Assembly (NCBI GenBank): GCA_964106915.2
Contig: OZ066928.1
Length of the DNA stretch: 64,000 bases
From: Podarcis gaigeae
Taxonomy: Eukaryota
Strand: one strand, 5' to 3'
Shown here: positions 18,401 through 57,570 of the stretch, piece after piece
How the letters are laid out: each line of letters starts with the position of its first letter
How positions within the stretch are numbered: the stretch's first letter is position 1
Notes under the pieces: model-generated
Databases searched by the model: none
Seen by the model: the letters and a program-made list of their open reading frames with translations, nothing else
Told to the model about the DNA's origin: nothing
Translations under genes and position numbers: made by a program

Positions 18401-19966
18401 CATTCACAGTAGTCTGTTTTGGGTGGGTAGCTGTATGTAAGCTTTACTCCCCATTCTACTAGAGAACTACAGAACCCTTACTCCTGCCCTAAATATTTAG
18501 CTTCTTTATCACCTTGCCCACCATTTTTTCTCTTTTGCCAATTATTTTTATTGATATTCCATAATTTTAAACAAATTGTCACGAAATTAATACAAATTCA
18601 ATATAAATTTAAAAGTTGTCTTTCTACCCACCCCATATGTCCCCTCTATTTTCCTTCCTCATTTGCTGCTCTCAATAATATAACTTTCCCAACTATCATT
18701 TCATTCATCCCTTCTCCCTACACATCACCTGTTCAGTTACCAATTTCTGTTATAGCTTTTATACATTGTTATAACATGTCTTCAAAATAGTCAAGTAGAA
18801 TAAATCCTCTTCTATCTATCTCTAATAGCCATTCATCAATTTTCAAACATTTCCTTCTGATACATCTTGAGTAACACTTTGCCTGGGGGGGGGGGAAACA
18901 GACCTTGCTTCCTCACTGACAACATACACATATTCCTCCTTAATCTGGCCTTGAACATTGCTATCGGACATGTGGCCCCAGTAATGAACAACTCAGCCTC
19001 TGGCCCCCGTAGTTAACAACTCAGCCTCACGGGTGCAGTATGCAGAGAGTGAAAACGAAACCTCTAGAAACTTTTTGGTTTATATAATAGACATTCTCCC
19101 CCTCTAACGCTGCCAGTCTCCCAGCGTCACCAACCCTTCACATTTCGCCATATTTCATCCTCAATTTGACACACAAGTTCATTAATAAAGAAACACAATC
19201 CATATCTCTTCTTTTTTGTCTGAAATTCTCAAAAGCCGTCAACACACTGTGGTCCATCCTGTCCCGTTCACTGTTCTTATTTCCAACTTCAAGCTTCAGA
19301 GAGGGAGGCTGGTGTAATATTCAACAAAATCCCTGTCTCCTCTCCATCCTCCCCCTCCCCAACTAATTAATTTTCCTGCAGTCCATCTTTCCAATCCTCA
19401 GTTCCATTAGTCCTTAGTTATAAAATAAATGCAATGCAAGGAGTATCTTTAAAGTCCACTCTTCCCAAAAACTTTGCATTCCATTGCTTTAGGGGAGGGT
19501 AGATAACGCAGATCCCCCCCCCAAAAAAACCCATTACTTACAACATTGACTTCCTTTCCCCTCCAGCATAAATCAGGACCTATTTAGCAGGTTGCCTCTT
19601 CACTTGCCAATTATGTCCTAATTCAAAGGTATTCCAGAGTTTACCATGGTAGCTTGCTGGGGCTGTCCTTGGACGCAGCAATTAAGCCCAGCGCCCTTAC
19701 CTTTTCATCTAGGAGATGGGGATTTCCATCCCCGCTCACACACAAAAAAAAGTATTAACGGACGACCGTGGATTGTGTCCTTTCGATACCCTCAAAATGT
19801 TAGGGGAGACATGCCCCTTACCCAGTGCTTTTTTTCTAAAAAATAATAATAATGTTTAGCGATACTCTCATTTTCCTACACATATTGAAATATTGCCCCT
19901 CAATGAGGTCAAACTTAGATTCACAAAATGTTTAGGGATATGCGTCCCCCCAGAAAAAAATCACTG
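18401..19966 (-). repeat. Left arm of the ~1.55 kb inverted repeat (partner 33422-35040)
   Basis: Near-continuous reverse-complement match to the right arm. The arm is a composite of an L1-like 3' tail, unique-looking DNA and a terminal CAGTG...CACTG MITE (19823-19966). The outer boundary is approximate. Confidence 0.92.
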
Positions 19967-20503: not shown

Positions 20504-20579
20504 ATGCTAACCTCTGGTGCTCTCTTCCTTCTCCTGGCCGTGTTGTCCAAGAGTTGGCTGACGACGGAAGCTGCAGATC
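20504..20579 (+). CDS. EGF-TM protein exon 1, signal peptide (MLTSGALFLLLAVLSKSWLTTEAAD)
   Basis: Kozak-like ACCATG, a hydrophobic core, and a phase-1 donor C|GTAAGA. Confidence 0.8.
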
Positions 20580-20708
20580 GTAAGAAACATTTGGGGCTGG
20601 TTATAGATGAGACCTAGTTGAACAAGATCCTCCTAGGTGCAAAATGCAATCCTGACTGATCCCCCTCACTTAGCAACAGTTTCCAGAGTTTCCTGGGAAA
20701 AGCGATTA

Positions 20709-21229
20709 CCGTATTTTTTGCCCTATAGGATGCACTTTCCCCCCCTCCAAAAATGAAGGGGAAATGTGGGTGCATCCTATGGGGCAAATACAGGCTTTTG
20801 CTGAAGCCTGGAGAGCGAGAGGCTCTTGCTCTCCAGGCTTCAGGAAGCTCTGCGCAACTGTGTCGGCCTCCAGAGGGTCGTGCAGAGCTGCCTGCCCTGC
20901 CGGGCTCTGCGCAGATCTGTGCGACCCTTCGGAGCCCGGCGCCAAGCTGCGCCGGGCTCCGGAAGGTTGCGCAGAGCTGCCTGCATTAGGAATCCTCAGC
21001 GCGCCCGGGCTTCGCACAGCTGTCCGCAAGCCTGGGGAGACCGGCGCGGCTGCCTAGGCTTGCGGATAGCAGGCTCTTCTGAGGGCTGGGGTCGGGGGAA
21101 GCTCGGGCTTCCCCCGCGCCAGCCCCGTGCCTGGGGGGGGAAATAATTTTTTTTCTTTATTTCCCCCCTCCCCAAAAAAACCTAGGTGTGTCCTATAGGG
21201 CGGTGCGTCCTATGGGGCGTAAAATACAG
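20709..21229. mobile_element. pogo/Tc2-like non-autonomous DNA transposon with a GC-rich interior
   Basis: TA-flanked TIRs CCGTATTTTT.GCCCTATAGGA.GCAC. Retained CpGs suggest a young insertion. Confidence 0.8.
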
Positions 21230-21337
21230 TAGTTGTTAAACTGCTCTGGGAATTGTAACTTTGTAAATAGATAAGAGTCTTCCTCGGCACCAATAACCAA
21301 CTACAGTTCTCAGGGTTCTTTGGGGGAGGGCATGACT

Positions 21338-21616
21338 GGGAGCGAGTGTGGTGTAGTGGTTAAGAGTGGTGGACTTGTAATCTGGGGAACCGGGTTCGTG
21401 TCCCCGCTCCTCCACTTGCAGCTGCTGGGTGATCTTGGGCCAGCCACACTTCTCTGAAGTCTTTCAGCCTCACTCACCTCACAGAGTGTTTGATGTGGGG
21501 GAGGAAGGGAAAGGAGAATGTTAGTCGCTTTGAGACTCCTTTGGGTAGTGATAAAGCGGGATATCAAATCCAAACTCCTCTTCTTCTTCTTCTTCTTCTT
21601 CTTCTTCTTCTTCTTC
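21338..21616 (+). mobile_element. tRNA-derived SINE (Squam3-like) with a (CTT)n tail
   Basis: TGGTGTAGTGG A-box and GGTTCG B-box; an inverted copy lies at 29104-29345. Confidence 0.8.
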
Positions 21617-23359
21617 AAGTGGTATAACACTGCTTTAGAAAATGTGGTGCACATGGGGCCTGAACTTAAGGAGTCCAATATTAATCTGCATTAAGTTAGG
21701 TTATGATTTCAGGGCAGGGCTGGGGAACTGTGCAACCCTTCAAAGGATGCTGGACTGCATCTCCCAATATCCTAGACTATTGGCCATTCTGGCTGGACGT
21801 GATGAAAATCCAGCAACGTATGAAAGGGGGACAAGTTCTCCGCCCCTGGACTTGGGGTACATCCCATTGAGCACAATGGGACTTACTTCTGGAGAAATAT
21901 GGGTAGAATTGTGCCGTCAGGCAGGGGTAGGGATGACAGACGTAGATAAGGGTGTACTGGAAGATCTCTAGATGGTGTGCAAAAGATCAACCAGGGCTTC
22001 CTCTAGACATCTGTTTGGTCACTTGTGGGGAAAAGGATACTGGACTAGGTAAGTATTTGGCTTCATCCAGCTGGAATCATCTTATGTTCTTATGTTTTTC
22101 TGACTAGCAATAGCAACAGTTAGAAAGCTTCCTAAACCAGGTTGCTGAAAGAGAACATTCAAAGGAAAAGCAGGAGTTGGCTTTTATTTGAAAGGATCTC
22201 CCAGCCCTCCCTGGACATGCCAGCGGGAACTGGACCTGGGACTTTCTACATGTAAAGCAGAGGCTCTACCAGTGAGCCATGGCTCTTCCCCTAATAACCC
22301 TAGGAAGGGAGGTACTTTAAAGTTTTCCATTAGCATCTCGAGGACAGAAAGAACAGCACTCAGGTTACCTGATCATAGTCTTCTCTGCATTAGTCATAAG
22401 TTTACATCCATACATATAAAATAGCACACAGAGATGTCATGCAGTTCTGTGTCCTCTTTTATGATAATGTGTTAATGGTCACCCTATCAACAACAGTGGT
22501 CCCTGCCAGTAATTCCGGAGGTGGATGATGATGATAATTATTAACCAGATGCAAAGGAGGTCACAGGCTTCTGATCTGCTCTCAGGTGTTTACTGGTATA
22601 CGTTTTCTCATATGCTATAGATACATCTCTTTACCTTGGCCTGTTCTTAACCCCACCCCCTATTCTTCTGATTGTAATTTGTTTTAACTGGTTTAAAATC
22701 TTTTTGTGTGGTTGTACCTCACCCTCACACCTTATGGTGTAGGTCAGGCAAATAGTAATAGTAGTAGTAGTAATAATAATAATAATAATAAACAAAAACA
22801 GAACAACAGAAGTAATTTTAGGAGGTACACCTTTGTGTATCTTTGCATCAGAGTAGTGCAAATGCACTGGCAGGAGTGTTGGATCAGCTCTGCAGGCAAG
22901 TTTTCACTGTACCAGCCTCCCTGTTGTCTCGTCCCTCCCAGCAAGCAGCAGAGACCTACCTTTCCAGAGTGATGTGGTTGCATATGGCAGCAGACCACCC
23001 TAGGTGGTTTTACTGGGATTAGTCCGGTTAAAATGAATGGATATGACTACCTGAAAGTTAGGTTATTTTAATTTCAGCAGGTCTGCTCTGAATAAAAGTT
23101 AAATACCACCCATAGTTTCTCAGTTTAGATGAAATAGGTATTGTTAATTAGAGGCTCTCTGGTTTAATTGTGGCTCGTATGAAGCAGGGAGCAAAGGTGC
23201 TTCGTGCATCGGGGCAGGTGTGTTTGTTTATATCAAATAATAATAATACGTAATAATGATAAATAATAAAGCAGGATGAAATGTTGGTGGTCCTATATAA
23301 ATCCACCACTAATGCACTGTTCTTGCACCGGTGGCATGTTGAATACCCGTTTCTGCTTC

Positions 23360-24200
23360 TTTGGCAATCACTTGTAGCCAAGTAAGATTGTCTTTCATGA
23401 ACACGGTCTTAACAGTGAGTCTGTAAGTGACTGTGGAGGCCAATTCTGGATCCACACATTCTTCCACAGTGGGGACCTAGGTTTCTGGTCAGGAGTTGAT
23501 CACAGTGTGGATTTGCCAAGTGTGCCTTCCTCTTGGCACATTTTCTCCTTTGCGTCCTGAGTTCATGCTTCTTCAAAGTCTATGACACCTTTGGTGAAGG
23601 CTGTTCTCCATTGGAGCACTCGCAGAGTTCCCAGTTATCTTTTGTTGTCCACTGGTATTTTGCTTTCCATTCTTAAGTTGGGAATATAGTAGTTGCTTTG
23701 GAAGATGATAATCAGGCACCAGAACAACATGACCAGTCTAACAAAGTTGATGTTGAAGAATCATTGCTTTGACACTGGTAATCTTTGCTTCATCCAGTAC
23801 ACTGGCATTAGTTCATCTGTCTTCCCAAGTGATCTGTAAAAAATTTCAGATGGAATCTTTCAAGGAGCTGGAGATGGCATTTATAAAAGGTTCATGTTTC
23901 ACAAGTGTACAGTAAAGTTGGTAGCACAATGGCTTGTTACTAGCATTTTGGTTTCCCTCTGAATGTCCTAGTCCTCAAACACTCTGCACTTCTATCAGGA
24001 GAAAGCTGTGCTTCTCGGAGCTCAGGCGATGCTGGATTTTGGCATCAATGTTGGCTTTTGTGGAAAGATAACTGCCTAGGTAGGAAAAGTGGTCAACTTT
24101 TTCCAACGTTACACCATTAAGTTGGAATCGTGGTGTTGCAGAGGGGTTGTTTTGTGCTTGTTGGTGCAGCACTTTGGGATTTTTTTGGATATTGAGCGAT
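23360..24200 (-). mobile_element. RTE-clade LINE 3' fragment
   Basis: Peptide NGVTLEKVDHFSYLGSYLS..NIDAKIQHRLS, frameshifted. Confidence 0.78.
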
Positions 24201-24369
24201 AGGCCAAGTGGCATGTTGAATAGCCCTGCAAAACAACTCAGGTCTGCAAGGCCCCTGAGACAAAGCAGCACTTCATTAGAATATGCTCACAAATTATCTC
24301 TATGGGTATCTTAAATTATGGTCAATATGACATTGCTATGCAGCTCAACTCTCTCCCCACTGTTTTCAG

Positions 24370-24475
24370 CCAATTGTTCCGGTGTGGCTGACCTTGATGA
24401 TTGTCCAGGCAGTACAAGCGATTTCTGCCCAGAAGGAGTTGCCTGTGGTTGTAAAGATCAATTTCCCTTTTGCAA
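24370..24475 (+). CDS. EGF-TM protein exon 2 (PNCSGVADLDDCPGSTSDFCPEGVACGCKDQFPFCK)
   Basis: Acceptor ctgttttcag, donor AA|GTAAGT, six Cys in an EGF-like spacing. Confidence 0.88.
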
Positions 24476-25387
24476 GTAAGTTACTTTCCTTCCTTTTAGG
24501 GTTTGGTTGAGCTTTGTGGGGAAAGACAATGGTTGGGCACCTGACCTCCCTCTGTCCACCTCACTGCTGTATATTATGACAGGGGTGTCAGGGAGAGAGA
24601 GGCTTGTAGCAAGGATGACATGGAATAGATGTGCAGCAGCTGAATTAGCTTTATTCCATTGCCTCTCCATCCTGTTATGCAGCATCAGTGCAGCCAGAAG
24701 GAGGTCAGATGAGTGGTGCAGCCCCACTGCACCAACTGCCATGTCTACACAGGCACCATGTGCTTAAGCCATGGGTAGGGAACTTTTTCAACCCAAGCCA
24801 CATTCCCCCAGAGGCAACTTTCAGGGGGTCGCATGCCAGTGGAGAAAGAAGCCAGATTCCACAGTCAGTGGGGCCATGGATATGACTTACCTTTCTTCAG
24901 TAGGCAACACCCCAGCTGTGTAAATGTCAGAGGCTGCGACATTCCCCACATTTCCACTACTCTCTATCCAAGCATGCAAAAGGCACTGTCCTAGGCTCCA
25001 ACCAGGCATAAGAAGCCAAGAAGGGTGTGGTCTGTCCCAACTTCTGCCAACCTAGCAGTTTGAAAGCACACCAGTGCAAATAGATAAATAGGTACCACTG
25101 TGGCAGGAAGGTAAAGAGCGTTTCCTTGGACTCTGGCACTCATCACGGTCCTTCATGTGCCAGTAGCGCTTTAGTCATACTGGCCCCATGGCCCCTGCAA
25201 GCAGTCCGTGGACAAACAAGTTCCATTGTGAGGAAAACAGCAAGGTTAAAAATTGCAGCCCTGCCCAATTTGACCGCACGTCACTGGATAGCACCCCAGC
25301 ACAAAAGCATTGCGATGGGTTGTAATCATACTATTAGGGGGTTGACGCAAACTGTTTTGATGTTGCTTTGCTTGATTCCATCCACAG

Positions 25388-25579
25388 GTGCCCTTCCTAT
25401 CAAAATGGCTGGAAAAATTACTGGTACATGGGTGTCAAATGCGAGGAGCTTTGGAGCACTTTGGACTTGATTTTAGTTGTGGTTTTCCCTGCAGTGGCTC
25501 TGTCTTTTGCAGCTGCTGTCACAACACAGTGGGTCCGGTATTGCAAGGACAAGCCAGAGAAAGAAGCCAAGCGAAACCG
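25388..25579 (+). CDS. EGF-TM protein exon 3: end of the EGF module plus TM helix (CPSYQNGWKNYWYMGVKCEELWSTLDLILVVVFPAVALSFAAAVTTQWVRYCKDKPEKEAKRNR)
   Basis: Acceptor tccacag, donor CG|GTGAGT. Contains the Y-x-G-x-x-C-E EGF terminus, a hydrophobic stretch and a basic stop-transfer segment. Confidence 0.9.
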
Positions 25580-25731
25580 GTGAGTCAGTATGTATTGCAG
25601 CCTTGTAGGCTGCAAATCTATGCACACTTACCTAGTTTGATCCCAAGTAAGAATCAAGGAGAAATTAGGTGCTGTTTGTATTTTAATGGAGAGCAATGGA
25701 CTTCACACTTCTTGAACTGAAATATGAATTT

Positions 25732-25940
25732 CTCTCGCTTGGACTACTGCAATGCGCTCTATGTGGGGCTACCTTTGAAGGTGACCCGGAAACTACAACT
25801 AATCCAGAATGCGGCAGCTAGACTGGTGACTGGGGGCGGCCGCTGAGACCACATAACACCAGTCTTGAAAGACCTACATTGGCTCCCAGTATGTTTCCGA
25901 GCACAATTCAAAGTGTTGGTGCTGACCTTTAAAGCCCTAT
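25732..25940 (+). mobile_element. L2-clade LINE ORF2 fragment
   Basis: [32 protein letters not shown]...LKDLHWLPV. Confidence 0.85.
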
Positions 25941-26379
25941 GGCAATCGTAATAGGTGTTGAAATTTTGGGAGGTTGGATAGTTACAAGGGAATGGTCTCA
26001 GGTGTGGGGTGCACATTTTATTTATTCTTATTACTTTGTTTTTTTAAAAAGGAGGAAGTGTAAGTGGTGGTACGTCACCTGCCCCACTGTTTCCACTGGT
26101 GCCAGAATGCCCTCCTCTCACCTGTGCACAGCTGCTGTACAAAGAAGACAAGTGACAATGCTTAGACGAACACCCCACTGAGAAAGGAGTGGGTATTCTG
26201 GCAGTGGTAGAAGTGGGGGCAGGGCACAGCACATTCCCATTTTGCCTCAGGTGGTGAAACGGGGCAGGCTGTTCCTGTTCTCACCCCTCCTCGCCAGCAG
26301 TGTACTAAATTTCTATATGTATGTGGAAGGAAGGAAGGAATCGAGGGCTCACATTCTTTTGACTCTTATATATTTTCAG

Positions 26380-26482
26380 TACTCAGGCAAGGCAGCTGAG
26401 ACCTGAACCACAGCATCATTCAGAATATGCTCCTAAACTGGCCAATAGGTTGAGATCCGCCTCTTATTCACAAGGAAGACAG
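26380..26482 (+). CDS. EGF-TM protein exon 4, cytoplasmic (TQARQLRPEPQHHSEYAPKLANRLRSASYSQGRQ)
   Basis: Acceptor tattttcag, donor CAG|GTAAAA, phase 2->0 fits. Confidence 0.75.
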
Positions 26483-28196
26483 GTAAAATATTTTGTTTGT
26501 TTATTTGTTTGTTTGTTTGTTTGTTTGCTTGTTTGCTTGCTTGCTTGCTTATTATGGACTTGGAATTTAATTGTGGTAAAAGGGGTGCTTTTTTTAATCC
26601 AGTGGATGGCATTGTTTATTTTTGAAATGCCCCGGGGTTTTGCATTATTTTTTGTATATGAGGGAAATAGCTGGCAGCCTTTTCTGAAAGGCGTTCTTCC
26701 CGTATCCACTCTGCAATTGACATTTACAATGGATGTCTGATATGTAAGATGAGATTAGGGCATTTGCATTAGCTGACATCAAATGGACTTCGTTTGCTTA
26801 GAAGCTGCAATATGATTGTCCTCCTTTATCCCAACCAGGCCTAGAAGACTCCTGGTGGGGTCAGAGGAGGAATCTGCAGCAACAAATAGCTGCTGCAGTG
26901 CCAAGAGTCCAGTTCAAGTTTTGTTACTCTTTGCAGTCAATGGCCATTACAACATAAGCATAAAACACATATATGGGGGGAGGATTATTCATCGCATAAA
27001 ACAGATAAACCCCAATAATACAAATAAATAGCATTTAAAGCATGGATTTCATTCAAAACTTCCCTTAACATTTAGCACTGATCTGAAAGGTGCCTCTAAC
27101 GGGATAAAGCTATCCTGCAGCTAATTAACTTGTTTACATCAGGCAGCAGACATCTTATTTAGAAAATGTCTCGTTTGCCTTCTAAGAAGGTCTAAAAGGC
27201 TAGAAGAAATGTCACACCTGGTAGGTATTGTAAAGGACAAAAGAATAAAGTGCAGCAAAAAAAAAAAATCTTATTAGAAAATCTGCCAGCCAAATATGCT
27301 ATAGGGGTAGTTTGGGAGCTAAGCTGGAAGTGTGCCTGACAAGGAAATAAGTTCAGTTCTGCAGATAGGTGGCCCTTCTATGGTTTGGTATCATACAGTT
27401 TTTTTTAGAACCACAACCACAACAACAACACCTTGTGCTCAATGCAGGAAATCCTTAGCTAGAGCATCACTGACCAATGGTTGTACAGCCCCTGCTTGAA
27501 TACCTCCAGTAAGGGACACTGGTAACTGGTCCCACAGTCAAACAGCTCTTACCACTTCTATTTCTTCTGTGGGAGAGAAAGCCACTGATTCTTTCATTCA
27601 TTCCTATACAGTAAGGATGGAGAACCTATAGTCCATCAGATGCTGTGCTACAACTAATATTATCTTTGACCGTCACCTGGCTGGGGCCAAAAGGAGTTAG
27701 GAGCTGCAGGTTCTCCACTCCCGATATACAGCTAAGGAACAGAAACTTTAATCATTTATGTGTAGAATGATGGCAGTATTTTCTGAGTTTTTGAAATAAG
27801 AAATATAGGGAGGACAAGGTACAATAACCAGGTTTGTTTTTAACTCTATCATGATGTGTTTGCAACTGGTCTTTATTTCACTCTGATTTTCTCTTCCTGT
27901 ATACCAACCTTCATCAACTTGGTGCCCTTCAGATATTTTTTAGGCTATATTGTAACTCCCATCTGCCTCAGTCAGCATGGGTCCCATATCTTGACGGCAT
28001 ACGGTTGATGAAGGCTGGTGAGTAATAGTAGACATATTATCTTATTATTTGTCTTCAGTATTTTGGGGATTGCATATTTGTTTTTAAGGGTTGCATCTTT
28101 ATCATCTATTTTTTCATAATAAACATTTTAAAATAACAAAACAGAAGTCAATTTGTCGCTTAATTCCCCCTTCTTTTTTTCTCTTTCTTGGTATAG

Positions 28197-28276
28197 GATA
28201 ATATTAAATTTCCCAAGTACAATCTCCAAAGTTACCCTCATGAACAAATACAGACACCATATGCTGGAGACTACAG
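28197..28276 (+). CDS. EGF-TM protein exon 5 (DNIKFPKYNLQSYPHEQIQTPYAGDYS)
   Basis: Long polypyrimidine tract then TAG, donor AG|GTATGA, phase 0->2. Confidence 0.78.
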
Positions 28277-29103
28277 GTATGATGTCCTTTGGTCAAACTT
28301 TTTCACAATGATGATATATTTTTCCTGCTAGAAGATAAATTGTGCACACTGCTCGGCAATGATGGAAATCATTATATATTTTCAAATGTAAAATGATCTT
28401 GAACTGTTCTGAAATTTGCCCTCCATTTACTTGAAAGCTTTCTTCTCCTGAGGAAGAAGAGTCCATTGTTCTGCATCATTTTCAAGGCATTTTAGAATTT
28501 GTATGGACCTGGAGTTTAGAACATGCCTTATAGTTGTCACGTAGTCTCATATTTTCTGTTTGTTTTTCTTACCAATAAACATTTATCCAGTTGCCTGCAA
28601 CCTTCCCAGCTGTTCAGGCCATATAACCTCCTCCCAGGCCACACCTCTCACTGGCCTTGTTTTGTACCTTCCTTAAGTGTTTTTGCCTGGACAGAGGATA
28701 TAGGTGTGTGTGTATATAGAAACTAGCTTACTGCACAAAGGCAAAATTTATATGCATCAATTTTTGCCTCCACTACCATGAGGCTCATGGAAGTTTGCCC
28801 AGAAGGCATTGTGGGCCTTGAGATTAAAAGGTTTCCCACTCCTGCTATAGGAGCTGCTTGCCTATCTCATCTCTATGTACAGAAAACCTGCAAAAGACAG
28901 AGTCCTCGGCTGCATGTTCATTCTATGTTCAGACCTTTGTATGAATGAGTGTAGGTCAGAAGCTGTGGTGGTGCCTGTGATCTGCAGGAGCTCATATGAC
29001 GCAACTAGGAAAAGGGATGAAGAAGGAAACAAGCAAACTGAGACAGAAGTTCATTCGCAGTTTTCTATAATGACCAGTTTGTAATGAAGGATCCGCTTAA
29101 GGG

Positions 29104-29345
29104 AGAAGAAGAGTTTGGATTTGATATCCCGCTTTATCACTACCCGAAGGAGTCTCAAAGCGGCTAACATTCTCCTTTCCCTTCCTCCCCCACAACAAAC
29201 ACTCTGTGAGGTGGGTGGGGCTGAGAGACTTCAAAGAAGTGCTATTAACCCAAGGTCACCCAGCAGCAGCTGCATGTGGAGGAGCGGAGACATGAACCCG
29301 CTTCACAGCTTACGATTCTGCCGCTTCTTACAACTACTATACCCC
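29104..29345 (-). mobile_element. Squam3-like SINE
   Basis: Reverse complement of 21338-21616. Confidence 0.8.
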
Positions 29346-29893
29346 ACTTACTCTTAGGAGAGGAAAAGCTAGATGGAGCTGGTGTCTCAGCTGAGCCAAC
29401 GGACTGGGCCCTGCTTCCCATCTTTCTTTTTGCTGCAGCCAGGTGGGATGCTTTGGGCTAAACTGATGCCAAAACTAAGATCCCAAAACTGAGGCCATTC
29501 ATTTTGATTCAGTGCATACAATAAGCGGTTATCATGTTGTTATGCCTAGATCTGTATTCCAGAGAAGTAGCCATGTTATTCTGTTGCAGCAAACGTAACA
29601 GAGGTGAAATCTACAAACATATTTAAAAAAACGCTGTGAAAATGCTTTTTAAAAAAATGTTTTGAAAAATACATTGAATTTGGCATAGCTCACTGCCTCA
29701 CATTTGTATATTGCACTTTACACATTTAAAATGTTTTATTTGCAGCTGTGTAGCTGAGTCCAGAGACTTGCAGCACCTTAATGGTTTACTGTGCCATATT
29801 TATCTTGAAACATAACTCTTTGTTGCATTTATCTGCCCATAAGAAATTTATATTTGCATTTTTTAAAAAAAGTGTTTAATTTGATTATTATAG

Positions 29894-30059
29894 TCAGATG
29901 CCTCACCAGCCATTGAGAAGAGCTGTTCCAAGCCAAGATGATGTATTTGTGGGTCGGTCTTTCCAAGCTGGCCAGCTTAACTCTTGGGAGAGTGAGGTGC
30001 CTGATGTGGATTATGAGGACATAAACCCATTTTCTGCTATGCCCATGCAACGATTTCCA
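29894..30059 (+). CDS. EGF-TM protein exon 6 (QMPHQPLRRAVPSQDD...EVPDVDYEDINPFSAMPMQRFP)
   Basis: Acceptor attatag, donor CCA|GTATGT, phase 2->0, open frame. Confidence 0.75.
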
Positions 30060-31495
30060 GTATGTACAAATAATCTCAGTTATACAAGGAGTGGGGGTTT
30101 TTGTTTTGTTTTTACTGGGGCAGGATTCAGAGAGAGCTCTCTGCATGAGTGGAAGGACCTCTTTCTTCAGTTTCCAGTGGGAACCTGCTACACTAGCCTT
30201 CCCTGACATGGTGCTGCCAGATGTTTTAGACTGCAACTACCACCAACCCCAGTCAGCATGGCCAATGGTTTGAGAGGATGGCAGCTGCAGCCCAAAGCAT
30301 CTGAAAAGCACCTGGTTGGGCGAGGATGCCCTACACCAGATGCCACATCATTCCCAGTCCTCAGGGGTTACTTTTCAGGGCTGCAGTAGGGAAAAGGAAC
30401 AATCCCCATCTGTAAACAGAACTCTGTTCACAATTCCCTAGATCCTACTGATAAAATTTGCACTAGGAAACTGGAAATGGAGCACATGTGAAGCCTTTGT
30501 GTATCAGGTTTACTACATAGGTGTTCAGGAAGCCTTAGGGCTTATTCAGACTTCCTTCTTTGCCATGCTTTCAGGCACAGACCCACAGTTTCCAGGTCTA
30601 TGTCCGAGCTGTGGTTTTTTTTTTGTCCCACCACTTACCCCAGAAAAGCCTGCTATTAACTGCTAAATCAGAACAAACAGCAATTGAGGTTTCTGTGGAT
30701 TGCTGTTTGTTCCGATTCAGCAGTAAAGGGTTTTTTTTTTCCATTAGGAAGCAGTGGGACAAAACAAAAGACCAGAAAATGAAACATAAAAGAAAAAACA
30801 ACTCACTGCTTAGACCTGGATTTGGAAAGAGCCCTTCGACGTAACTATGAGAGCCTGTCTGTTACATCACCCATTTCCTCTTCCTGATTCTTAGGCTGTG
30901 TGCACAACCATACATTTAAAGTGCATCCTTACCCCAACCCCACAAAGAAACCTGAGAGCTGCCATTTATTACCCAGAATTCCTACAGTTCCCAGAATTCC
31001 TGAGGGTGTGTGCGCGCCTTAAATGTATAGTGTGGATGCAGCCCCAGGGCTTAATCTTCTTCCCCACCTACCCACTCCCTTTCTTCTGTCTTATGCTGAC
31101 CAACCCCACTGCGACTCTCTGCTTCTCCATGGCTCTTTAAGAAAGTGTATCCACAGGAGTAGAAGCTGGTGGGAAAAGGGAAAAAATAATGGAACTCATG
31201 AACATGCCCAGAAGCAATTTTGGCCCTGTAGCAGGAGGAGGAGTCTGTCTAGAGCAGTCATGTGGTGTTTCTCTCCACCTGCTGCAAATTACAGTTGGTG
31301 GTAGGTGGCCCTGTGGGAAGTAGGGAAGAGAAAACAGTCTTGCTGGAACTGTAGCAAGGGCCTGGTGTTATCCTTGCCTGCTTCCCTCACAGTCCTGGAA
31401 TCCCACATGGCAGGTGGGAAGGAGGCTCTAGGAGAGGGGGCAGGGAGTCCTTCCAATGCAGCAACCAATTTTCATATTTTAACTTTCCCTTACAG

Positions 31496-31624
31496 AGACC
31501 CGGGGCATCAGTGGTACCTCGGCCTGAGCACCAGAAGTATGGTCATCAACCAGTGAATTACCTGAATGGTCAAAGAGCTGGAAGGCCCTATGGGCTCGGG
31601 CACCAGCAGGATAGATACACCTAG
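31496..31624 (+). CDS. EGF-TM protein exon 7, terminal (RPGASVVPRPEHQKYGHQPVNYLNGQRAGRPYGLGHQQDRYT*)
   Basis: Strong acceptor ttttaactttcccttacag, TAG stop, AATAAA at 31633 and 31848. Confidence 0.78.
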   Translation, partial: RPGASVVPRPEHQKYGHQPVNYLNGQRAGRPYGLGHQQDRYT

Positions 31625-31949
31625 GAACTTTTAATAAATATGGAAAACAGGTGCAACTGCAGAATCGTCCTCCATTGTTTGGTGCAGCCTCCATTGTTTG
31701 GTGCAGCCTCTCTTACCTCTACTTTTCTCCATGAGGGCTTTATCGCAAGCCACACCCAATGAATACATACCTATCAAGACGCAGCAAATATTTAATCAGC
31801 ACAGCCATTAAAATGAGAAATCTGTTTGGGCAGCATCTTTCTTATTTAATAAATGAACCTACCAATCCACCTCTTCCTGTCCAAAGCGTCTAATGTCCTG
31901 CTCTATAACATGTTGTTCTTCTAGCAATAATTGGTATTCAGTGGATCCA

Positions 31950-33421: not shown

Positions 33422-35040
33422 CAGTGAGTTTATTTGGTGGTGGTGCAGAGGGACGCATACCCCTATACATTTTGTGAATCTAAGTTTGGCCTCATTGAGG
33501 GGCAGTATTTCAATATGAGTTGGAAAATGAGAGTATCCCTAAACATTTTTTTAAAGAAAGAAAGCACTGGGTAAGGGGCATGTCTCCCCTAACATTTTAG
33601 GGTATCAAAAGGTCACAATCCACAGTCGTCCATTAATGCTTTTTTTTGTGTGTGAGCAGGGATGGAAATCCCTGTCTCCTAGATGAAAAGGTAAGGGCGC
33701 TGGGCTTAATTGCTGCGTCCAAGGACAGCCCCAGCAAGCTACCATGGTAAACTCTGGAATACCTTTGAATTAGGACATAATTGGCAAGTGAAGAGGGAAC
33801 CTGCTAAAAAGATCCTGATTTATGCTGGAGTAAAAAATCATCAGTTTGGAAAGGCTTGAAAAGAATGAAAGATGCTAATTTCTGCTTTGCTTGAATGGTG
33901 TAAGGAGGGGAAAGGAAGTCAATGTTGTAGGTAAAGGGTTTTTTTGGGGGGGGGATCTGCGTTATCTACCCTCCCCTAAAGCAATGGAATGCAAAGTTTT
34001 GGGGATGAGTGGACTTTAAAGATACCTCCTTGCATTGCATTTATTTCATAACTAAGGACTAATGGAACTGAGGATTGGCAGGATGGACTGCAGGAAAATT
34101 AATTAGTTGGGGAGGGTGGAGAGGAGACAGGGATTTTGTTGAGATTACACCACCTCCCTCTCTGAAGCTTGAAGCTGGAAATAAGAACAGTGAACGGGAC
34201 AGGATGGACCACAGTGTGTTGACGGCTTTTGAGAATTTCAGACAAAAAAGAAGAGATATGGATTGTGTTTCTTTATTAATGAACTTGTTGCGTGTCAAAT
34301 TGAGGATGAAATATGGCGAAATGTGAAGGGTTGGTGACGCTGGGAGACTGGCAGCGTTAGAGGGGGAGAATGTCTATTATATAAACCAAAAAGTTTCTAG
34401 AGGTTTCGTTTTCACTCTCTGCATACTGCACCCGTGAGGCTGAGTTGTTCATTACTGGGGCCAGATGTCCGATAGCAATGTTCAAGGCCAGATTAAGGAG
34501 GAATATGTGTATGTCGTCAGTGAGGAAGCAAGGTCTGTTCCCCCCCCCCCAGGCAAAATGTTACTCAAGATGTATCAGAAGGAAATGTTTGAAAATTGAT
34601 GAATGGCTATTACAGATAGATAGAAGAGGATTTATTCTACTTGACTATTTTGAAGACATGTTATAACAATGTATAAAAGCTATAACAGAAATTGGTAACT
34701 GAACATGTGATGTGTAGGGAGAAGGGATGAATGAAATGATAGTTTGAAAAGTTATGTTATTGAAAGCAGCAAATGACGGAAGAAAATAGAGGGGACATAT
34801 GGGGTGGGTAGAAAGACAAGTTTTAAATTTATATTGAATTTGTATTAATTTCGTGACAATCTGTTAAAAATTATGGAATATCAATAAAAATAATTGGCAA
34901 AAGAGAAAAAATGGTGGGCAAGGTGATAAAGAAGCTAAATATTTAGGGCAGGAGGATTCTGTAGTTCCCTAGTAGAATAGTAGAATGGGGACTAAAGCTT
35001 ACCTACAGCCACCCACCCGAAATAGAATGTAACTGAAATG
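33422..35040 (+). repeat. Right arm of the ~1.55 kb inverted repeat (partner 18401-19966)
   Basis: Reverse complement of the left arm with substitutions and indels, including about 70 extra bp near 33830-33903. The outer boundary is approximate. Confidence 0.92.
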
Positions 35041-39597: not shown

Positions 39598-40249
39598 TCT
39601 CAGTGAACGTAATTAGTGTGTCGAGGATTATAGCCTAAAATACTTTGGCTTCAGGGTGATTAGCTGTTTCCTATTTTCAATGGGAAACTCTCCAGTAAAG
39701 GAGAGCAACAGCGCCATCTTATGCGTCCGAAGCCCAGCTGAATATTCAGCAAGGCTTGGGGTGCGATCCGATGGATTGCCGACTTAAAAAGCAAGCCCAC
39801 TGGGTTCCACAAGGCTTACTCCAAAGTAGCCCTTGGTTAGGATGGCAGCCGCGACCCCTTTGCCAACCGCTGAGGGGACAAAAGATTCCTTAAAGGGCTG
39901 GCCAGATACAACCGCGGCGACGTTTAAAAACGAGTTGGGGGAGCAAGAATCACGACTTGCACATGAGAAAAAGCGAACGGTAGAGAAACTCAGTTGTGTG
40001 TTTTTTGTGGGGAGGGGGACACCTGCCATGTCTTTTATTGCCTCTTTGAAATAACCATTCGACGCGTTTTGAGGTACCAAACTCAGTTATCGTTTATTGT
40101 AACGGTGATGAAATGACCTGTTAAGTTCCCGTGTTTTTTTTTTTGACTGGGGCGGGTTTCGAGATCAGAACTCCTGCCGTACCCACCCACCCCCAAAAAA
40201 TCAGGTCGGTTATTTTCCATCATTTATTTTTCTGGGGTATCGTCAAGAC

Positions 40250-41900
40250 CACATCACCCCTCCTTTCTGGTCAGCGATGGCGTGAAGCGACGGACCACCG
40301 AGCGCTCGCGCATCTTCGGTGGCCGCGATCCTCCCCCCCCCCCCCCCCGTCACTGCAGTCAATCCAGGGCGCCTCTCGACTGGCTTTTGTTTTGCTTGGG
40401 CTCCCCCCCCCCCGCGCGACAACTAATGGCAAGGAAAGTACTGGCATATAGAAAGCCTCATTCGCTTTTGCTACGCATGCTCTGGACACCAGCGGCGGCG
40501 GCAGGGTCTCAGAAGATGAGAGAGATGGGGGGGTTAAACAAGATGAGGGGGGCGCGCAAGTGCGCGCGGTTGATGCTTGCGCCTGGGTGACGTGTGTTCC
40601 AGCAACGGCTGGTCGCGAGACTGCTGGTGGTTGCGTGGGGGGGGCCGAGGGTGAAGAGAGAAAGGGAGGGGGGAGTGAGTTTGCGAGTGAGCAGGCCGCG
40701 CGCGCTCCCGCCCGCCTGCCGTTTCCTACCCTAGCCTGTGATTGGTGCAGGCCTCGGACCTGGCGGACCCCGAATGCCAGGCCCCGAAAAGCGACAGCCG
40801 AGGCGGCCGGGTCCTCGGGCCTGCACTCCCCACCCGCTCGGGCCCGAGCCCGCCAAGCGAAGGTGAGGAGGAGAGCGGCGGCGGTGTGGGGGGAAGCGGG
40901 GAAGGGGATGTACGCTCAGCCGCGGCAAGGGAATTGAGCAGAAATTCGATTTTATTTTTTAAAAAACGGGGAGGCGGCGGGGGAGGAGGCGCCAGGCCGC
41001 TTAGGCCCCGGAGCAGGCCGCGCCCCGAGGCCTACAGGGCCGCTCATCTAAACAATCGCTTTTTTATTATTTAAAAAACAGAACGAAGCAAAAATACGAA
41101 GCGTATGAACCGGCTCGCGCCTCACAGCCAGGCGGCCGCGAGCGAGCGCTCGGGCTTCTCCCCCTCCGCATACTGCTCGGCCGGGGCTGTGGCCGGGCCC
41201 AAAGGCAGCCAGAAAATGGCGGAAAATAAAATGGCGCCCGTTGCAGCAGAGAAGCGCAGCTCGGCAGAGGCCCTCGTCTCCCTCCACCTTACAGAAGCTC
41301 TTTAAAACACGCGCGTACACACATACACACACATGCCTGCCCGCCCGCTAACTGACACCCAGCGGCTGTAGCAATCAGACAAACCGTCCTCCCTCTTGCG
41401 CCTCATAGTGCCGCGGGACGTAGAAGCACGACAGAAAAGGGGGGGGGGGGAGAGAGAGAGAGAGAAGGAAGCGGCGGCAGTCCGGTGAAGACGAGGCCCG
41501 GCGATGCGGGGAAAGCGTTGCTTTCCCACCTCGCAACTCCTGCTAGGGGAGCTGTCCCTGGTGAAAGCCGCCTCCCGCCTTCCCCGAGAGAGTCTTTTGT
41601 CTCCCACAGCCGACGGGCCCCTTCGCTGCCGTGCTTCCTCTCGGGCCCCGCGCTAGGCACCGCTGGCTCCCTGCCCTCCCTCGGCCGCGCAACACCGCCC
41701 CGGGGAAGGATGGGTACAACCCCACCCCCTTTTGCCCGACTCGGGCTCCAAAGCGCCGCTTTATTGTTTGCTCATCACGGGCGCTGATTGGAAGCGAGAG
41801 GAAGAGGAGGGTTGTGTGTGTGTGTGTGTGTTTGTGTGTGTTTGTATATAGTATGCGCGTCTTCGTCCCATGCACGCGCATTTCCCCAGCTGTCTGTTGC
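40250..41900. promoter_or_regulatory. CpG island promoter of ZNF711, probably bidirectional
   Basis: Abrupt GC/CpG-rich block. ATTGG boxes at 40741 and 41787, YY1-type AAAATGGCG at 41213 and 41228, and a plus-strand donor AAG|GTGAGG at 40862/3. Confidence 0.85.
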
Positions 41901-42667
41901 GCGCTGAGGAATAGCAAGCTAGAAGCCTTATAGAAATGAAGCATATAAATTTAGGTAGCAAAGCAACGCGCCTTGGTCTCGAACATGTGTTTTTGATTCT
42001 CATAAGCAGTCCGATCTCCTCTGCATGTTTACTTTTAAGTTCAGTTGGAACTCACTCGCCCGTGTGCTTTAGTTTTGCAGAGCTTAGCCTGTTCGGGTTT
42101 CCTGGGAAATGATTCAGAAAAAATCCCAACCCAATCTTTTGACATCCTTAAGATGCTGCAGATTTATGCTATAAACTTCAATGGCCTAGAGCCTACTTCA
42201 TCGGATGCATATGATTAAAAACATCTGATCTTGTGTTCCGCTGCAACAGGCTTTTTTTGCTGTGGGAAGTAAGTGCAGCTGACATTCAGTAGGGCTGTAG
42301 ACCTAGATTTCTTACTGCAAGCAAGCATAGTTTATTTTTACCCGAGGAAGTATAATTTTGCATCCACAGTCTTCATTGGGTAGGTCAAGTCCTTTTCCAT
42401 ATATGTTTGTCCTGGACATTTCCATTTGTATTTAATTGTGCAAAATGCCTGGTTGTACAAAATAATTGTACAAAATTTAGGTGTTTCTTTATTAGCACCT
42501 GTAATTCCACTCTTTAAAAAGAAATAAAGAACCATCTGATGTTTAGAAGACATCTGAAGGGAGCCCTGTTTTTAACGACTGATGTTTTAATGTATTTTTT
42601 ATCTCTTATTGGAGGCCACCCAGAAAGGCTGGGGAAACCCCGCCAGATGGGTGGGGTATAAGTAATA

Positions 42668-46116: not shown

Positions 46117-46701
<585 letters not shown>

Positions 46702-47469
46702 TGACATTTGAGTCTGTTCAGACTAGAAGTGATCCAGTGATGAGAGGTTATGAAGTATAATTGGTTGTTAGTTTGAATATAATTTTCCCAATAAAATTTT
46801 GGAAGAAATAGCATTACAACCGTAAAATACTCAATACTGTTTAAAAATGGTTTCTAGTTAGTAGCGGTAGGTGGCTAGTGTACATAAATCTTTATCCAGT
46901 TGTACCCCTCTGCTTAAAGAATACTGTTGGATTGAGAAGAGGCTCCCATGAGCCAAAATGGAAATTTCTGCAAATTCCCCTTTCTCCTGCAATTATTCAC
47001 ACTTCCTACTTCACTTCCAAAGGGCTCACCAGCTCTCTTGAGCAGATTTTGGAGGAGTTGCAGAGGAAAGAGAATTTGAGAAAATAAATTCTACCTTCTC
47101 TTTCTGCTAACAGAAACCTCTTAGATCAAAGAGCCTTCTATCAGCAGAAGAACACGATAGGATAGAATACAGCTCACAGTGAGATTTTGTTTTCACAGTT
47201 AAAGAGGTTTATGGGAACAGTACAACATTCTAATATATATATATTCTTGGAACCATGGCTGGGAGGACTTGACAATTCTTATGAAAGACTCTTCAAAAAC
47301 AAAACAAAAAACTTCCATAGCAGTGCACATACAACACTTCAATTCTTTGCATTCTTTAGAACACATTTCCAAATGGAGTACTTCAATGTTAAATAAGTAG
47401 ACATTTTTAAAGGTTAATTTGAAAACAACAACAAAAAACTAATTTTATAATGGGCAGTTATGGGAATTA

Positions 47470-47720
47470 GTAGATCCCGAACGCCTTGGATCCCGAACGC
47501 CTTGCAAGTCTAACATTTTGGCTCCCAAATGCCGCAAACCTGGAAGTGAGTGTTCCAGTTTGCGAACATTCTTTGGAACCTGAACGTCTGACGGGGCTTC
47601 CATGGCTTCTGATTGGCTACAGGAGCTTCCTGCAGCTAATCGGAAGCCATGCTTTGGTTTGTGAACGTTTTGGAAGTCGAACGGACTTCCGGAACAGATT
47701 CCGTTCGACTTCCAAGGTAC
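47470..47720. mobile_element. Tigger-like MITE, partial
   Basis: CpG-containing repeat ending CCAAGGTAC, resembling the Tigger-like TIR. Confidence 0.55.
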
Positions 47721-49256
47721 ATGAATTGAAGATCGGATAGTAAGAACAACAGACTTGTGGCATCTTTAAAGACTTACAAAATTACCATGACATGAGCTTC
47801 TGTGGATTATGACCCACTTCATCAGATGCATGCAGGGTTTTCTGAGCTAGAAAGATGTTTGTTTGTGTTGCCGTTAAGGTGCCACCAAGACTCCTTTGTT
47901 GATTTTCTGAGGGAAACTAACATGGTATGACAACTGTTACAAGGAAGACATCAGTCTGTGTAAGCTAAAAAAAAAAAACCCCCACACAAATAATGAAATA
48001 TCTCTTTATTTTTGTTTTTGATGTTTGTGATGTTCAAACACCCACAGTGGATTGCTAGCTCTTGATCCATATGATAGCCCTGCATGCACAGTACTGGTAA
48101 TCCTATGCTACCCATTGCAGCTGTTCTTTAGGGGTAACATAATATTCCACTACCAGCTTCCTTCAAAAATCTGTTATTTTATTTAAAGCAATTTCTAAAC
48201 AACTTAAAATTGAAAGTCTCTAAGTGGTATACAAAAATGCAGACATGAAAACAGTAAAAACGAAAAGTATCATAAAAACAACAACAAAACCTAGTAATAA
48301 CAGGGTCCAATCTTATTCTTATTGCTTACTACAGTATAGTAGGTTGACAACGTTTTCGTGGTGTCACGCCACTTCCCTTAGCAAGGATTCCACCACCAGT
48401 AATGTCATCACGGCAGTCTGGATTGGTGGTGGAGTTTCTTACAAGCAATGTTTAGATTCACATTGTGGGTCATGCTGTAGACCACATGTTCAGAAATTAT
48501 TATTTGAGCCATAATATGGGTGGCTAAGCCACATCATTGTATGCTGGCCAAAAGTTACCTAGTCCTGCAATATGGTGCTGCATAGTTTGCTAAAATTAAG
48601 AATACATTCCTCTATTGAGATAGAACCTAGGTAAAGCAAATTTAAACTTACTGAATAAAAGCACAACTGTGAAACTACGTCTCATGGACTTCTGTGCTTG
48701 GTGTGACATCACCAGCATAGTCTATGCTGAGACATCATATGAATTGAGAGCTGGCAATCTACAGTGAATCTGAACATCTCACATCTGGAAACAGCTGAAA
48801 AGGGAAGTTAGAGGCGGCAAATATTACCCTTTTTCTTCTTTGGTAAACAGGCTTTTCTGCAGAATTTCTCTTGCAAACAATCCCTTCACACTTATTTGTG
48901 CTGAGAGCAACAATATAATATAACTGGAATTTACAGAATTTATTCAGTTTCTTCCACTAATGGGTTTACTATGTGGACCAGACCAGAAAGTAATAGTCCT
49001 GCAGCTATTACTTTAAAATGAAAATTTTGGTGAGGAGAGTTGTGAGATTATTAATGCATGAAACTGAAATTTCTTCATTTAGTTCATATCTATATGATGA
49101 TGTCTGTGCAAATCTTGTTACACCTAGGTATATTTTGTTGAGAAAGAAGCATGGGTTGAAGGAGGAATCCAAAGTGTGCATATTGAATGGAATTGACATA
49201 AGTAATTAACTTAGATGTCAAGCTATGGTTGATCGATACAGTACATTTGTCTGAAG

Positions 49257-49260
<4 letters not shown>

Positions 49261-49297
<37 letters not shown>
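49261..49297. repeat. (AC)n microsatellite
   Basis: Read directly from the sequence. Confidence 0.95.
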
Positions 49298-49302
<5 letters not shown>

Positions 49303-49810
49303 GTAGCATCCCTTAAAATACCTTGCAAGAGTTGAAAAATGTGAGCACATTTGCGACATTTTTATTTAACCCCTTGTTTCCAATATTTTAAGCACCTAAC
49401 ATGTCTCTGTAACAAGGGCTTTAAAAAATGGAAAAACAACAACAGTGTGATAAATTAATGTTTTGTAACCACTTGTAAGGTCTACCCGAAAAGCAATATA
49501 TAAACACCTTAAATAAATAAAAATAACACAGAACGTTGATAACTACTTCAGAAACAGTATGTTATTTCCTGACTTCCTGTGATTCCAGCTGAAAAGCTTT
49601 CTTTTCAAGCAGCTGTTTTCAGTAGAGTTTAACAATGTAATATCTACTTAGAAGTAATCCTGTCTGAGTTCAGTCAGGCTTACCAGCACTTACTTTCCGG
49701 TAAGTGTGTGTAGGACTGTATCCTAAATGTCTCCTCTGTTTGCATCCGACTAAATCCATGTCACTGTTCCACATTTTTAAGGCAGCATGTTTGGGAAAGA
49801 AATGTTAGTA

Positions 49811-50051
49811 CAGTGGTACCTTGGTTTATGAACTTAATCTGTTCTGGAAGTCTGTTCTTAAAGCGAAACCATTCTTAAACTGAGGCACGCTTTCCCTAAT
49901 GAGGCCTCCCGCTGCTGGTGCCCTTCCACTGTTTGGATTCCGTTCTTAGACCGAGGTAAAGTTTGCTAACCGGGATACTACTTCCAGTTTTGCTGAGTTT
50001 GTAAACCAAATAGTTCTTAAACAGGACTGTTCTTAAACCAAGGTACCACTG
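49811..50051. mobile_element. Tc1/mariner (Tigger-like) MITE
   Basis: TIR CAGTGGTACCTTGGTTTA at both ends. Confidence 0.82.
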
Positions 50052-51501: not shown

Positions 51502-51561
51502 TTTTCTTTTCTTTTCTTTTCTTTTCTTTTCTTTTCTTTTCTTTTCTTTTCTTTTCTTTTC
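51502..51561. repeat. (CTTTT)n pentanucleotide microsatellite
   Basis: Read directly from the sequence. Confidence 0.95.
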
Positions 51562-54500: not shown

Positions 54501-54864
54501 GCAAGCCACATCTTGGATTTGTTTGATATTTTGAAAATCTTGTAATATTTATGGAGAAAGGGGCAGCAATACAAAAACAACTCTGAGTTATTTGTTGCTT
54601 AATCAGACATTATAATGTAACAGACACGTTTCTACAGTGTGCTTGTAATTTTTGGTGGTGAAATTTATTAAAACAGTAAAATAAAACAAATCTATTCATA
54701 TGTGAAATATTCACAAAACAGGCAAAATAAGGTCTGCATGCCAGCTTTATATTGCAAATCATGTTGTGTTTTGCATATACGAGCTAAGAACAATTGAGCA
54801 ACATTGGTAATACTTGCTTCTTGCTTCCTTCTAACTGGTTTTTATTGTTGTTTGTTTTTTATAG

Positions 54865-55023
54865 TGGATGATGTTGGGGAAAAGCTAGACCATATTGGAA
54901 ACACACCTTTAAAAATCAGCACTGAGGTTTCACATGATGATGTATCTAAAGATGATGGTTTTGGTTCTGAAGTCATTAAAGTTTACATATTTAAAGCTGA
55001 AGCTGAGGATGATGTGGAAATAG
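54865..55023 (+). CDS. ZNF711: ZNF711 exon ([10 protein letters not shown]...[17 protein letters not shown])
   Basis: Conserved VIKVYIFKA motif and canonical splice sites. Confidence 0.96.
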
Positions 55024-57496: not shown

Positions 57497-57570
57497 GGGA
57501 CGGTAGCTCAGTGGTAGAGAATATGCTTTGCTTGTAGAAGGTCTCAGGTTAAATCCACAGCATCTCTTTT
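57497..57570 (+). mobile_element. tRNA-derived SINE head (not a tRNA gene)
   Basis: TAGCTCAGTGGTAGAG A-box and a degenerate B-box; the stems are mismatched. Confidence 0.6.

What the first reader, a model, noticed from the sequence alone, without database searches (positions are those of the whole stretch)
24370..25470. EGF module has an ErbB-ligand-type gene architecture but 8 cysteines and no GxRC arginine
Seen: the intron falls between the 4th and 5th EGF cysteines (FC-K|C, phase 2), and the last Cys is within about 10 residues of the TM. Established: this combination is characteristic of EGF-family ligand precursors and of the juxtamembrane EGF modules of neuroglycan C, IMPG2 and MUC3/12/17. 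The long aromatic C5-C6 loop (NGWKNYWYMG) is closer to the latter group. Seen: two extra Cys (in NCSG and ACGC), and GVKC in place of GxRC. Inference: there is a fourth disulfide, and the protein is a stripped-down relative without mucin or SEA domains that probably does not bind EGFR canonically.
Basis: partly seen in the sequence, partly recalled or inferred. Interest (0 to 1): 0.7.

Follow-up and report, generated by a model that had tools for sequence, protein, structure and literature searches.

The report
Protease-less meprin-like eight-cysteine EGF protein
This is a real, spliced lizard gene, the counterpart of the unstudied mouse gene 2010106E10Rik, with relatives from sharks to mammals; it encodes a predicted small membrane protein whose eight-cysteine EGF-like module most resembles the membrane anchor of the gut protease meprin beta, and it likely works as a membrane adaptor in gut lining cells, not as a growth factor.

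Summary
The two exons belong to a 7-exon gene (20504-31624, 283 aa): predicted signal peptide, 8-Cys EGF-like module, transmembrane helix and ~170-aa tail. RNA-type contigs from two studies join exons 1-2-3 with no mucin or SEA exon. The gene is annotated but uncharacterised: ortholog of mouse 2010106E10Rik, chicken LOC422270 and fish zgc:158432, downstream of APOOL. All eight Cys are kept from sharks to mammals; no Pfam family reaches its cut-off. It shares the phase-2 intron and the Cys spacing. The tree does not resolve a sister group (62.9/33). The two extra Cys fit an integrin-type 1-5 disulfide (inferred). The missing Arg is real, but this genome's meprin beta lacks it too. The tail keeps a PxxDY motif (45 of 85 tails; shuffles about 4), the Eps8/Nck SH3 ligand type. 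Best reading: a gut-epithelial membrane adaptor, not a canonical EGFR ligand. No simian protein was found.

The parts
20504..20579 (+). Exon 1 coding part: ATG and predicted signal peptide (aa 1-~24); phase-1 donor
   Evidence: hydropathy only, no signal-peptide predictor run; contig joint 20579-24370; mouse RefSeq ortholog labelled 'precursor'
24370..24475 (+). Exon 2: Cys 28, 37, 45, 51, 53, 60 (N-terminal extra Cys, EGF Cys 1-4, extra Cys two residues after EGF Cys 3); N-glycosylation sequon at aa 27; phase-2 donor
25388..25579 (+). Exon 3: EGF Cys 5 and 6 with a 16-residue aromatic loop, short stalk, transmembrane helix, juxtamembrane Cys and basic stretch
25461..25532 (+). Predicted transmembrane helix (aa ~86-109). 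The Trp and Asp at its outer end and the mid-helix Pro are invariant in 72 of 72 aligned members
   Evidence: helix 104-133 of P0001 in the AlphaFold model
26380..26482 (+). Exon 4, cytoplasmic tail
   Evidence: joint 25578-26379 in 4 of 4 runs
28197..28276 (+). Exon 5, cytoplasmic tail
   Evidence: joint to exon 6 in 4 of 4 runs.
29894..30059 (+). Exon 6, cytoplasmic tail carrying the PxxDY motif
30000..30014 (+). PxxDY motif (aa 222-226), candidate Eps8/Nck-type SH3 ligand
   Evidence: motif specificity from PMC9407544 passages
31496..31624 (+). Exon 7 coding part to the stop codon; C-terminal Tyr motif; polyA-signal hexamers at 31807 and 31848, near where the contigs end (31839-31857)

Best explanation
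The gene is the lizard ortholog of mouse 2010106E10Rik and encodes a predicted single-pass membrane protein whose ectodomain is one eight-cysteine EGF-like module most similar to the membrane anchor of meprin beta, and which likely acts as a membrane adaptor in gut epithelium rather than as a shed ErbB ligand. Shown: exon structure, orthology, conservation of all eight Cys, absence of protease, mucin and SEA exons, highest similarity to meprin beta, and enrichment of tail motifs. Inferred: disulfides 37-51, 45-60 and 62-79 plus an integrin-type 28-53 bond that ties the N-terminal arm onto the hairpin (about 0.8); no canonical EGFR activation (about 0.85); common origin with meprin beta's EGF-transmembrane exons (about 0.6); brush-border location and PxxDY binding to Eps8-family or Nck SH3 domains, coupling a membrane partner held by the conserved loop and helix to the actin cortex (about 0.4).
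For: Orthology: 106 hits, a mouse cluster named 2010106E10, 44% identity over aa 8-142, E 1e-46. An ApoO-family exon lies 7 kb before the window, and mammalian models fuse this gene to APOOL. Meprin beta: the best-scoring hits outside the family among 1.84 billion representatives are meprin beta pieces (E 6e-8 and 1e-6). It is the top paralog in this genome (E 0.27, weak). Profile scores: meprin beta 34.8-46.3 bits (7 sequences), ascidian proteins 19-32 (5), IMPG2 17.5-22.7 (7), meprin alpha 17.9, CSPG5 15.4, ErbB ligands -3.4 to 14.8 (6). Spacing 4/5/8/1/12 in meprins; the family has 5/8/1 in the middle, 4 in the three shark-like sequences and 12 in teleost-type members. Only meprin beta (13-22) and one ascidian protein (17) score clearly positive over stalk plus helix. 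The integrin 1-5, 2-4, 3-6, 7-8 pairing is from PMC3601072 passages. Tail: PxxDY in 45 of 85 tails (300 shuffles: mean 4.1, maximum 12), and Tyr within the last two residues in 72 of 85. Gut: the mouse transcript has 544 reads at an edited site in an intestinal RNA-editing table (PMC4197816) and falls together with Fgf15 and defensins in a cecum table (PMC9871501).
Against: The tree gives family plus meprin beta only 62.9/33, and the AU test rejects none of five sister hypotheses (p 0.14-0.60). In the reciprocal search meprin beta's exon finds IMPG2 (E 0.004), another paralog and two mucin-like copies before this gene (E 0.35). The N-terminal half of the module gives no positive similarity to meprin beta. 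Mammalian orthologs mostly have PxxNY, not PxxDY, and several fish have neither. The tails are related, so the shuffle test overstates independence. Disulfides were not seen: the structure tool gave no coordinates. The chicken gene is also listed in breast-muscle RNA (PMC11997327) and the mouse gene in a kidney table (PMC5880790), so gut specificity is not shown. No tissue is known for the lizard runs.
Confidence: 0.5

Rival explanations
1. It is a stripped-down member of the SEA-EGF mucin/IMPG2 group and would act like a minimal membrane mucin.
For: It shares the aromatic C-loop and the phase-2 intron with IMPG2 and CSPG5. Five ascidian proteins with a long ectodomain and two Cys-rich modules before the helix score E about 1e-4 to 6e-4. 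A mucin-like gene of this genome appears to end in an RPQ-containing stretch like the amphibian and fish tails (exon not confirmed). The AU test does not reject this sister group.
Against: Profile scores are about 20 bits below meprin beta. The B-loop is 9-10 residues, not 8. No mucin or SEA exon is present. The mucin-like module could not be assembled and is not in the tree.
Confidence: 0.25
2. It is an accessory subunit that escorts or regulates a membrane protein (a transporter, a sheddase or meprin itself) through its conserved helix and aromatic loop, as collectrin does for amino-acid transporters (analogy recalled).
For: The Trp, Asp and Pro around the helix and the loop Trp and Gly are invariant in 72 of 72 members, more than a plain anchor would need (inference). 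The ectodomain is very small.
Against: No partner was identified. The tail motifs point to cytoplasmic signalling or sorting. This rival is not exclusive of the best explanation.
Confidence: 0.25
3. It is a non-canonical ErbB ligand or modulator, like tomoregulin, neuroglycan C or MUC4.
For: It meets both Stein and Staros criteria (PMC1618406 passages). That paper reports tomoregulins acting on ErbB4 without the Arg. Tetrapod members have the 7-residue first loop and an aromatic residue before EGF Cys 2 (102 of 119). The top fold rows are ErbB ligands.
Against: Arg is present in only 4 of 119. The C-loop is 12-16 residues against 8. Pro follows EGF Cys 2 in 105 of 119, and a polar residue stands five positions after the last Cys in 118 of 119, where ligands have receptor-binding hydrophobic residues (Leu15; Leu47 recalled). 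The stalk is very short. The tetrapod-type spacing is absent in sharks and most fish.
Confidence: 0.13

Closest known systems
Mouse 2010106E10Rik / rat RGD1561958 / chicken LOC422270 / fish zgc:158432
   Same: Same gene family: architecture, eight Cys, helix and position after APOOL.
   Different: No difference of kind. These genes are annotated as uncharacterised, a few automatically as 'meprin A subunit beta-like'. My paper searches found them only in expression tables.
Meprin beta (MEP1B) C-terminal EGF + transmembrane module
   Same: Phase-2 intron between EGF Cys 4 and 5, Cys spacing, aromatic loop, stalk register, highest profile score.
   Different: No astacin, MAM or MATH domain; two extra Cys; a 4-residue longer loop in tetrapods and sharks; a tail of about 170 aa with PxxDY instead of a short tail.
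IMPG2, CSPG5 (neuroglycan C), MUC3/12/17 juxtamembrane EGF modules
   Same: Same intron position and aromatic C-loop; the same long-loop group in the tree (mucins not in the tree).
   Different: No SEA, mucin or proteoglycan region; B-loop of 8 residues against 9; lower scores; eight Cys.
ErbB ligands (TGFA, HBEGF, BTC, EREG, EPGN, EGF, neuregulins)
   Same: Gene architecture and predicted fold.
   Different: Spacing 7/5/8/1/16 against 7/4/10/1/8; no Arg; short stalk. Gene names for the loci are my recall, not given by a call.
Integrin beta I-EGF domains
   Same: Eight Cys with a Cys-x-Cys at positions 4-5, which fits the 1-5, 2-4, 3-6, 7-8 pattern (PMC3601072).
   Different: A single module in an unrelated protein. 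No sequence or fold hit to integrins was listed. Likely convergent.

Membership tests
2010106E10Rik / zgc:158432 family | Sequence orthology over ectodomain and helix | tested here: met
   44% identity to the mouse protein, E 1e-46
2010106E10Rik / zgc:158432 family | Position downstream of APOOL | tested here: met
   ApoO-family exon on the same strand 7 kb before the window; APOOL-fused mammalian models; a Zfx/Zfy-type gene follows (the name ZNF711 is recalled)
ErbB ligands | Splice site between EGF Cys 4 and 5 | tested here: met
   criterion from PMC1618406
ErbB ligands | EGF module next to a transmembrane helix | tested here: met
ErbB ligands | Arg before the sixth Cys | tested here: not met
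   Lys here; Arg in 4 of 119
ErbB ligands | Six Cys with an 8-residue C-loop | tested here: not met
   Eight Cys, loop of 12-16 residues
ErbB ligands | Binds and activates an ErbB receptor | not testable with these tools
Meprins (astacin family) | Astacin protease, MAM and MATH domains | tested here: not met
   283-aa model and contigs without such exons; no Pfam match for P0001 or P0205
Meprins (astacin family) | Juxtamembrane EGF with x/5/8/1/12 spacing and phase-2 intron | tested here: met
   (loop 12 in teleost-type members, 16 here)
Meprins (astacin family) | Module forms one clade with meprin beta | tested here: inconclusive
   62.9/33; AU p 0.55, with no alternative rejected
Membrane mucins / IMPG2 (SEA-EGF) | SEA domain and Ser/Thr-rich region | tested here: not met
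   Exons 1-2-3 joined directly
Integrin-type four-disulfide EGF | Eight Cys with Cys-x-Cys at positions 4-5 | tested here: met
Integrin-type four-disulfide EGF | 1-5 disulfide actually formed | not testable with these tools
   The model output has no coordinates; no natural co-loss of the two Cys was seen
EGF-like fold | Structural match to solved EGF modules | tested here: inconclusive
   Foldseek's top six rows are EGF modules, TM 0.41-0.60 by target length, E 0.41-1.4; the wide search was filled by the helix; Atlas leads under 0.9 are EGF-clan

The most novel reading that the evidence does not exclude
An overlooked family as old as jawed vertebrates: a protease-less sister of meprin beta with an independently evolved integrin-type fourth disulfide, which couples the gut brush-border membrane (or meprin's own membrane partners) to Eps8-driven microvillar actin through a PxxDY tail, and which was lost on the way to monkeys and humans.
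Probability: 0.17. Interest if true: 0.78.

Novelty: new variant of a known kind. Interest (0 to 1): 0.5.

Why it matters
The list of proteins with ErbB-ligand gene architecture (Stein and Staros 2006, abstract and passages read) does not include this family, and Pfam has no model that reaches cut-off for it. A gene kept from sharks to mice, expressed in mouse intestine, with a meprin-beta-like anchor but no protease gives a clean test of what this juxtamembrane EGF module does by itself; the meprin review passages I read give it no function. If it is truly missing in simians, it would be a mouse-human difference in gut biology. The gene itself is already annotated; what is new is the classification, the predicted disulfide pattern and the tail motif.

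Tried and rejected
Extra mucin or SEA exons: a scan of intron 1 for open phase-1/1 exons printed no candidate, and contigs join across it. Homodimer prediction for ectodomain plus helix: no answer, score 0.02; neither for nor against binding. Second structure job on the short P0123 without an alignment: pLDDT 52, unusable and not searched, so the ectodomain was never folded well on its own. Wide fold search: filled by the transmembrane helix, best Z 4.2. PDB sequence search: 0 hits. Pfam on 16 members: no family at a convincing level, and an EGF-type model in only 2 of 16 at E 0.026. Tree: my first reading put 98/99 on family plus meprin beta; re-rooting had shifted the labels, and the true values are 98/99 for the family alone and 62.9/33 with meprin beta. 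Four IMPG2 rows were the wrong EGF module and were corrected. Four fish sequences fell outside the module pattern and are not in the tree; meprin alpha, the mucin-like gene, NRG2/3 and TMEFF are also absent from it. No run is on record as RNA. X15 showed no exon piece, which is no evidence. Loss in simians: no simian name among the hits or the 27 clusters opened; 11 unnamed hits were closest to bat, rodent, newt, lizard or bird proteins, one of them (P0094) only about 60% to squirrel and horse. Two pseudogene papers' supplements had no mention (two files of PMC6886504 were not searched), so the loss is unconfirmed. Paper search was swamped by a numeric term. Our-findings look-ups were empty. 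A test against the Eps8 SH3 domain or an ErbB ectodomain was not run, because no unsplit protein was held.

Full report
Observation. Following the splice signals gives a 7-exon, 283-aa open frame from 20504 to 31624: a hydrophobic N-terminus, eight ectodomain Cys, a helix at about aa 86-109 and a Pro/Ser/Gln-rich tail. Contigs from RNA-type runs of related organisms show GT..AG joints for exons 1-2 (2 of 4 runs) and for 2-3, 3-4 and 5-6 (4 of 4), plus a 6-7 joint in 4 of 4; one 1128-nt contig has exactly the length of the 7-exon model. A contig from another study has 106 nt between exons 1 and 3, and a DNA-type run covers intron 2 unspliced.

Identity. Exon 3 found 17 proteins among 33 candidates; a profile found 106 among 7144, and 81 at E up to 0.001 among 1.84 billion representatives. 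Named members span elephant shark, teleosts, lungfish, amphibians, reptiles, birds, echidna and many placentals, among them mouse 2010106E10Rik, rat RGD1561958, chicken LOC422270 and zgc:158432. Identity to the mouse protein is 44% over aa 8-142. An ApoO-family exon lies 7 kb upstream of the window, and a Zfx/Zfy-type zinc-finger gene lies downstream. Mouse lemur, pig and naked mole-rat models fuse the gene to APOOL. No simian protein was among the named hits, and the only carnivore hit is degenerate; loss in these lineages is a lead, not a result.

Cysteines. 119 of 154 family hits carry all eight Cys, 102 of them with the spacing seen here; most of the rest are partial models. With the three standard bonds in place the extra pair would be 1-5, the pattern reported for integrin I-EGF domains (PMC3601072, passages). 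The AlphaFold model of the Lacerta ortholog has pLDDT 80-91 over most of the module, with a hairpin carrying Cys 51, 53 and 60, but bonds could not be read. Foldseek's six best rows are neuregulin-1, betacellulin and EGF modules, none significant.

Closest relative. Stein and Staros (PMC1618406; abstract, outline and passages) list meprin alpha and beta, IMPG2 and mucins 3, 4, 12 and 17 as non-ligand proteins with this architecture; this family is not named in the passages I read. The best-scoring hits outside the family are meprin beta C-terminal pieces (named), followed by ascidian proteins with two Cys-rich modules; one long unrelated hit lies among them. In this genome the top paralog of exon 3 lies in a gene with astacin, MAM-like and MATH-like exons, with the same phase-2 intron. 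A family profile scores meprin beta at 34.8-46.3 bits, ascidian modules 19-32, an unnamed paralog 21-26, IMPG2 17.5-22.7, meprin alpha 17.9, CSPG5 15.4 and ErbB ligands -3.4 to 14.8. The 8-residue B-loop is shared only with meprins among the sequences compared. Against this: the reciprocal search ranks this gene sixth of 8 matches, and a 57-row, 62-column tree supports the family (98/99) and the long-loop group against ErbB ligands (98.5/100) but family plus meprin beta only weakly (62.9/33); an AU test on 31 rows rejects none of five sister groups. Meprin beta is thus the most similar module, not a proven parent.

ErbB binding. The Arg that contacts the receptor is present in 4 of 119 modules; Pro follows EGF Cys 2 in 105, and a polar residue stands five positions after the last Cys in 118. 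The loop is 12-16 residues against 8 in the ligand loci of this genome (gene names recalled). Canonical agonism is unlikely. The Arg alone is not diagnostic, because this genome's meprin beta has Lys and IMPG2 has His there, and tomoregulins are reported to act without it.

Tail and helix. Of 94 proteins, 85 had tails of 100 aa or more (1 skipped, 8 too short). PxxDY occurs in 45 of 85 (300 shuffles: mean 4.1, maximum 12), PxxDY or PxxNY in 62, a membrane-proximal Asn-x-x-aromatic motif in 43, and Tyr within the last two residues in 72; the sequences are related, so these counts are not independent. PxxDY is the ligand type of the SH3 domain of the microvillus protein Eps8 and of Nck (PMC9407544, passages); most mammals have the Asn form. 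Trp, Asp and Pro around the helix are invariant in 72 of 72, which suggests a membrane partner (inference).

Expression and literature. Three papers hold the mouse gene name, all in tables read as passages: an intestinal RNA-editing table with 544 reads, a cecum table where it falls with Fgf15 and defensins, and a kidney list. The chicken gene appears in a muscle table. Searches found no functional study; the library lacks most subscription journals, and supplements were searched for only two papers. PMC3573791 and PMC2725086 were read as passages; PMC2864566 and PMC6886504 as search listing and supplements only.

Verdict. This is a real, annotated but uncharacterised vertebrate gene. It is a new variant of a known kind; interest 0.5.

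Noticed in passing
window 18413-19948 and 33450-35026: The whole gene is bracketed by two copies of an element of about 1.5 kb in inverted orientation, most arms 92-99% complementary; probably recent copies of a transposable element.
   Followed up: partly
window 46117-62042: Zfx/Zfy-type zinc-finger gene (activation region and C2H2 array), probably ZNF711 (name recalled), with a GC-rich island at about 40000-42000.
   Followed up: partly
window ~27765-27780: Possible micro-exon matching a few extra tail residues in the Lacerta model P0001; skipped in the contigs whose lengths could be checked.
   Followed up: no
P0007, P0122, P0124: Mouse lemur, naked mole-rat and pig models fuse APOOL/MIC27 to exon 2 of this gene: read-through splicing or an annotation artefact.
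   Followed up: no
L014 and L015 (G000:C25:755173 and 826831): Two near-identical copies of a mucin-like EGF-transmembrane gene 72 kb apart.
   Followed up: partly
L013 (G000:C26:29612133), P0279, P0316: Another poorly annotated protein with two Cys-rich modules, an aromatic-loop EGF and the same phase-2 intron; labelled uncharacterised or IMPG2-like but forming its own clade (99.7/99).
   Followed up: partly
P0143, P0006: The raccoon-dog copy has lost several Cys and the helix; the python model has Phe in place of the last Cys.
   Followed up: no
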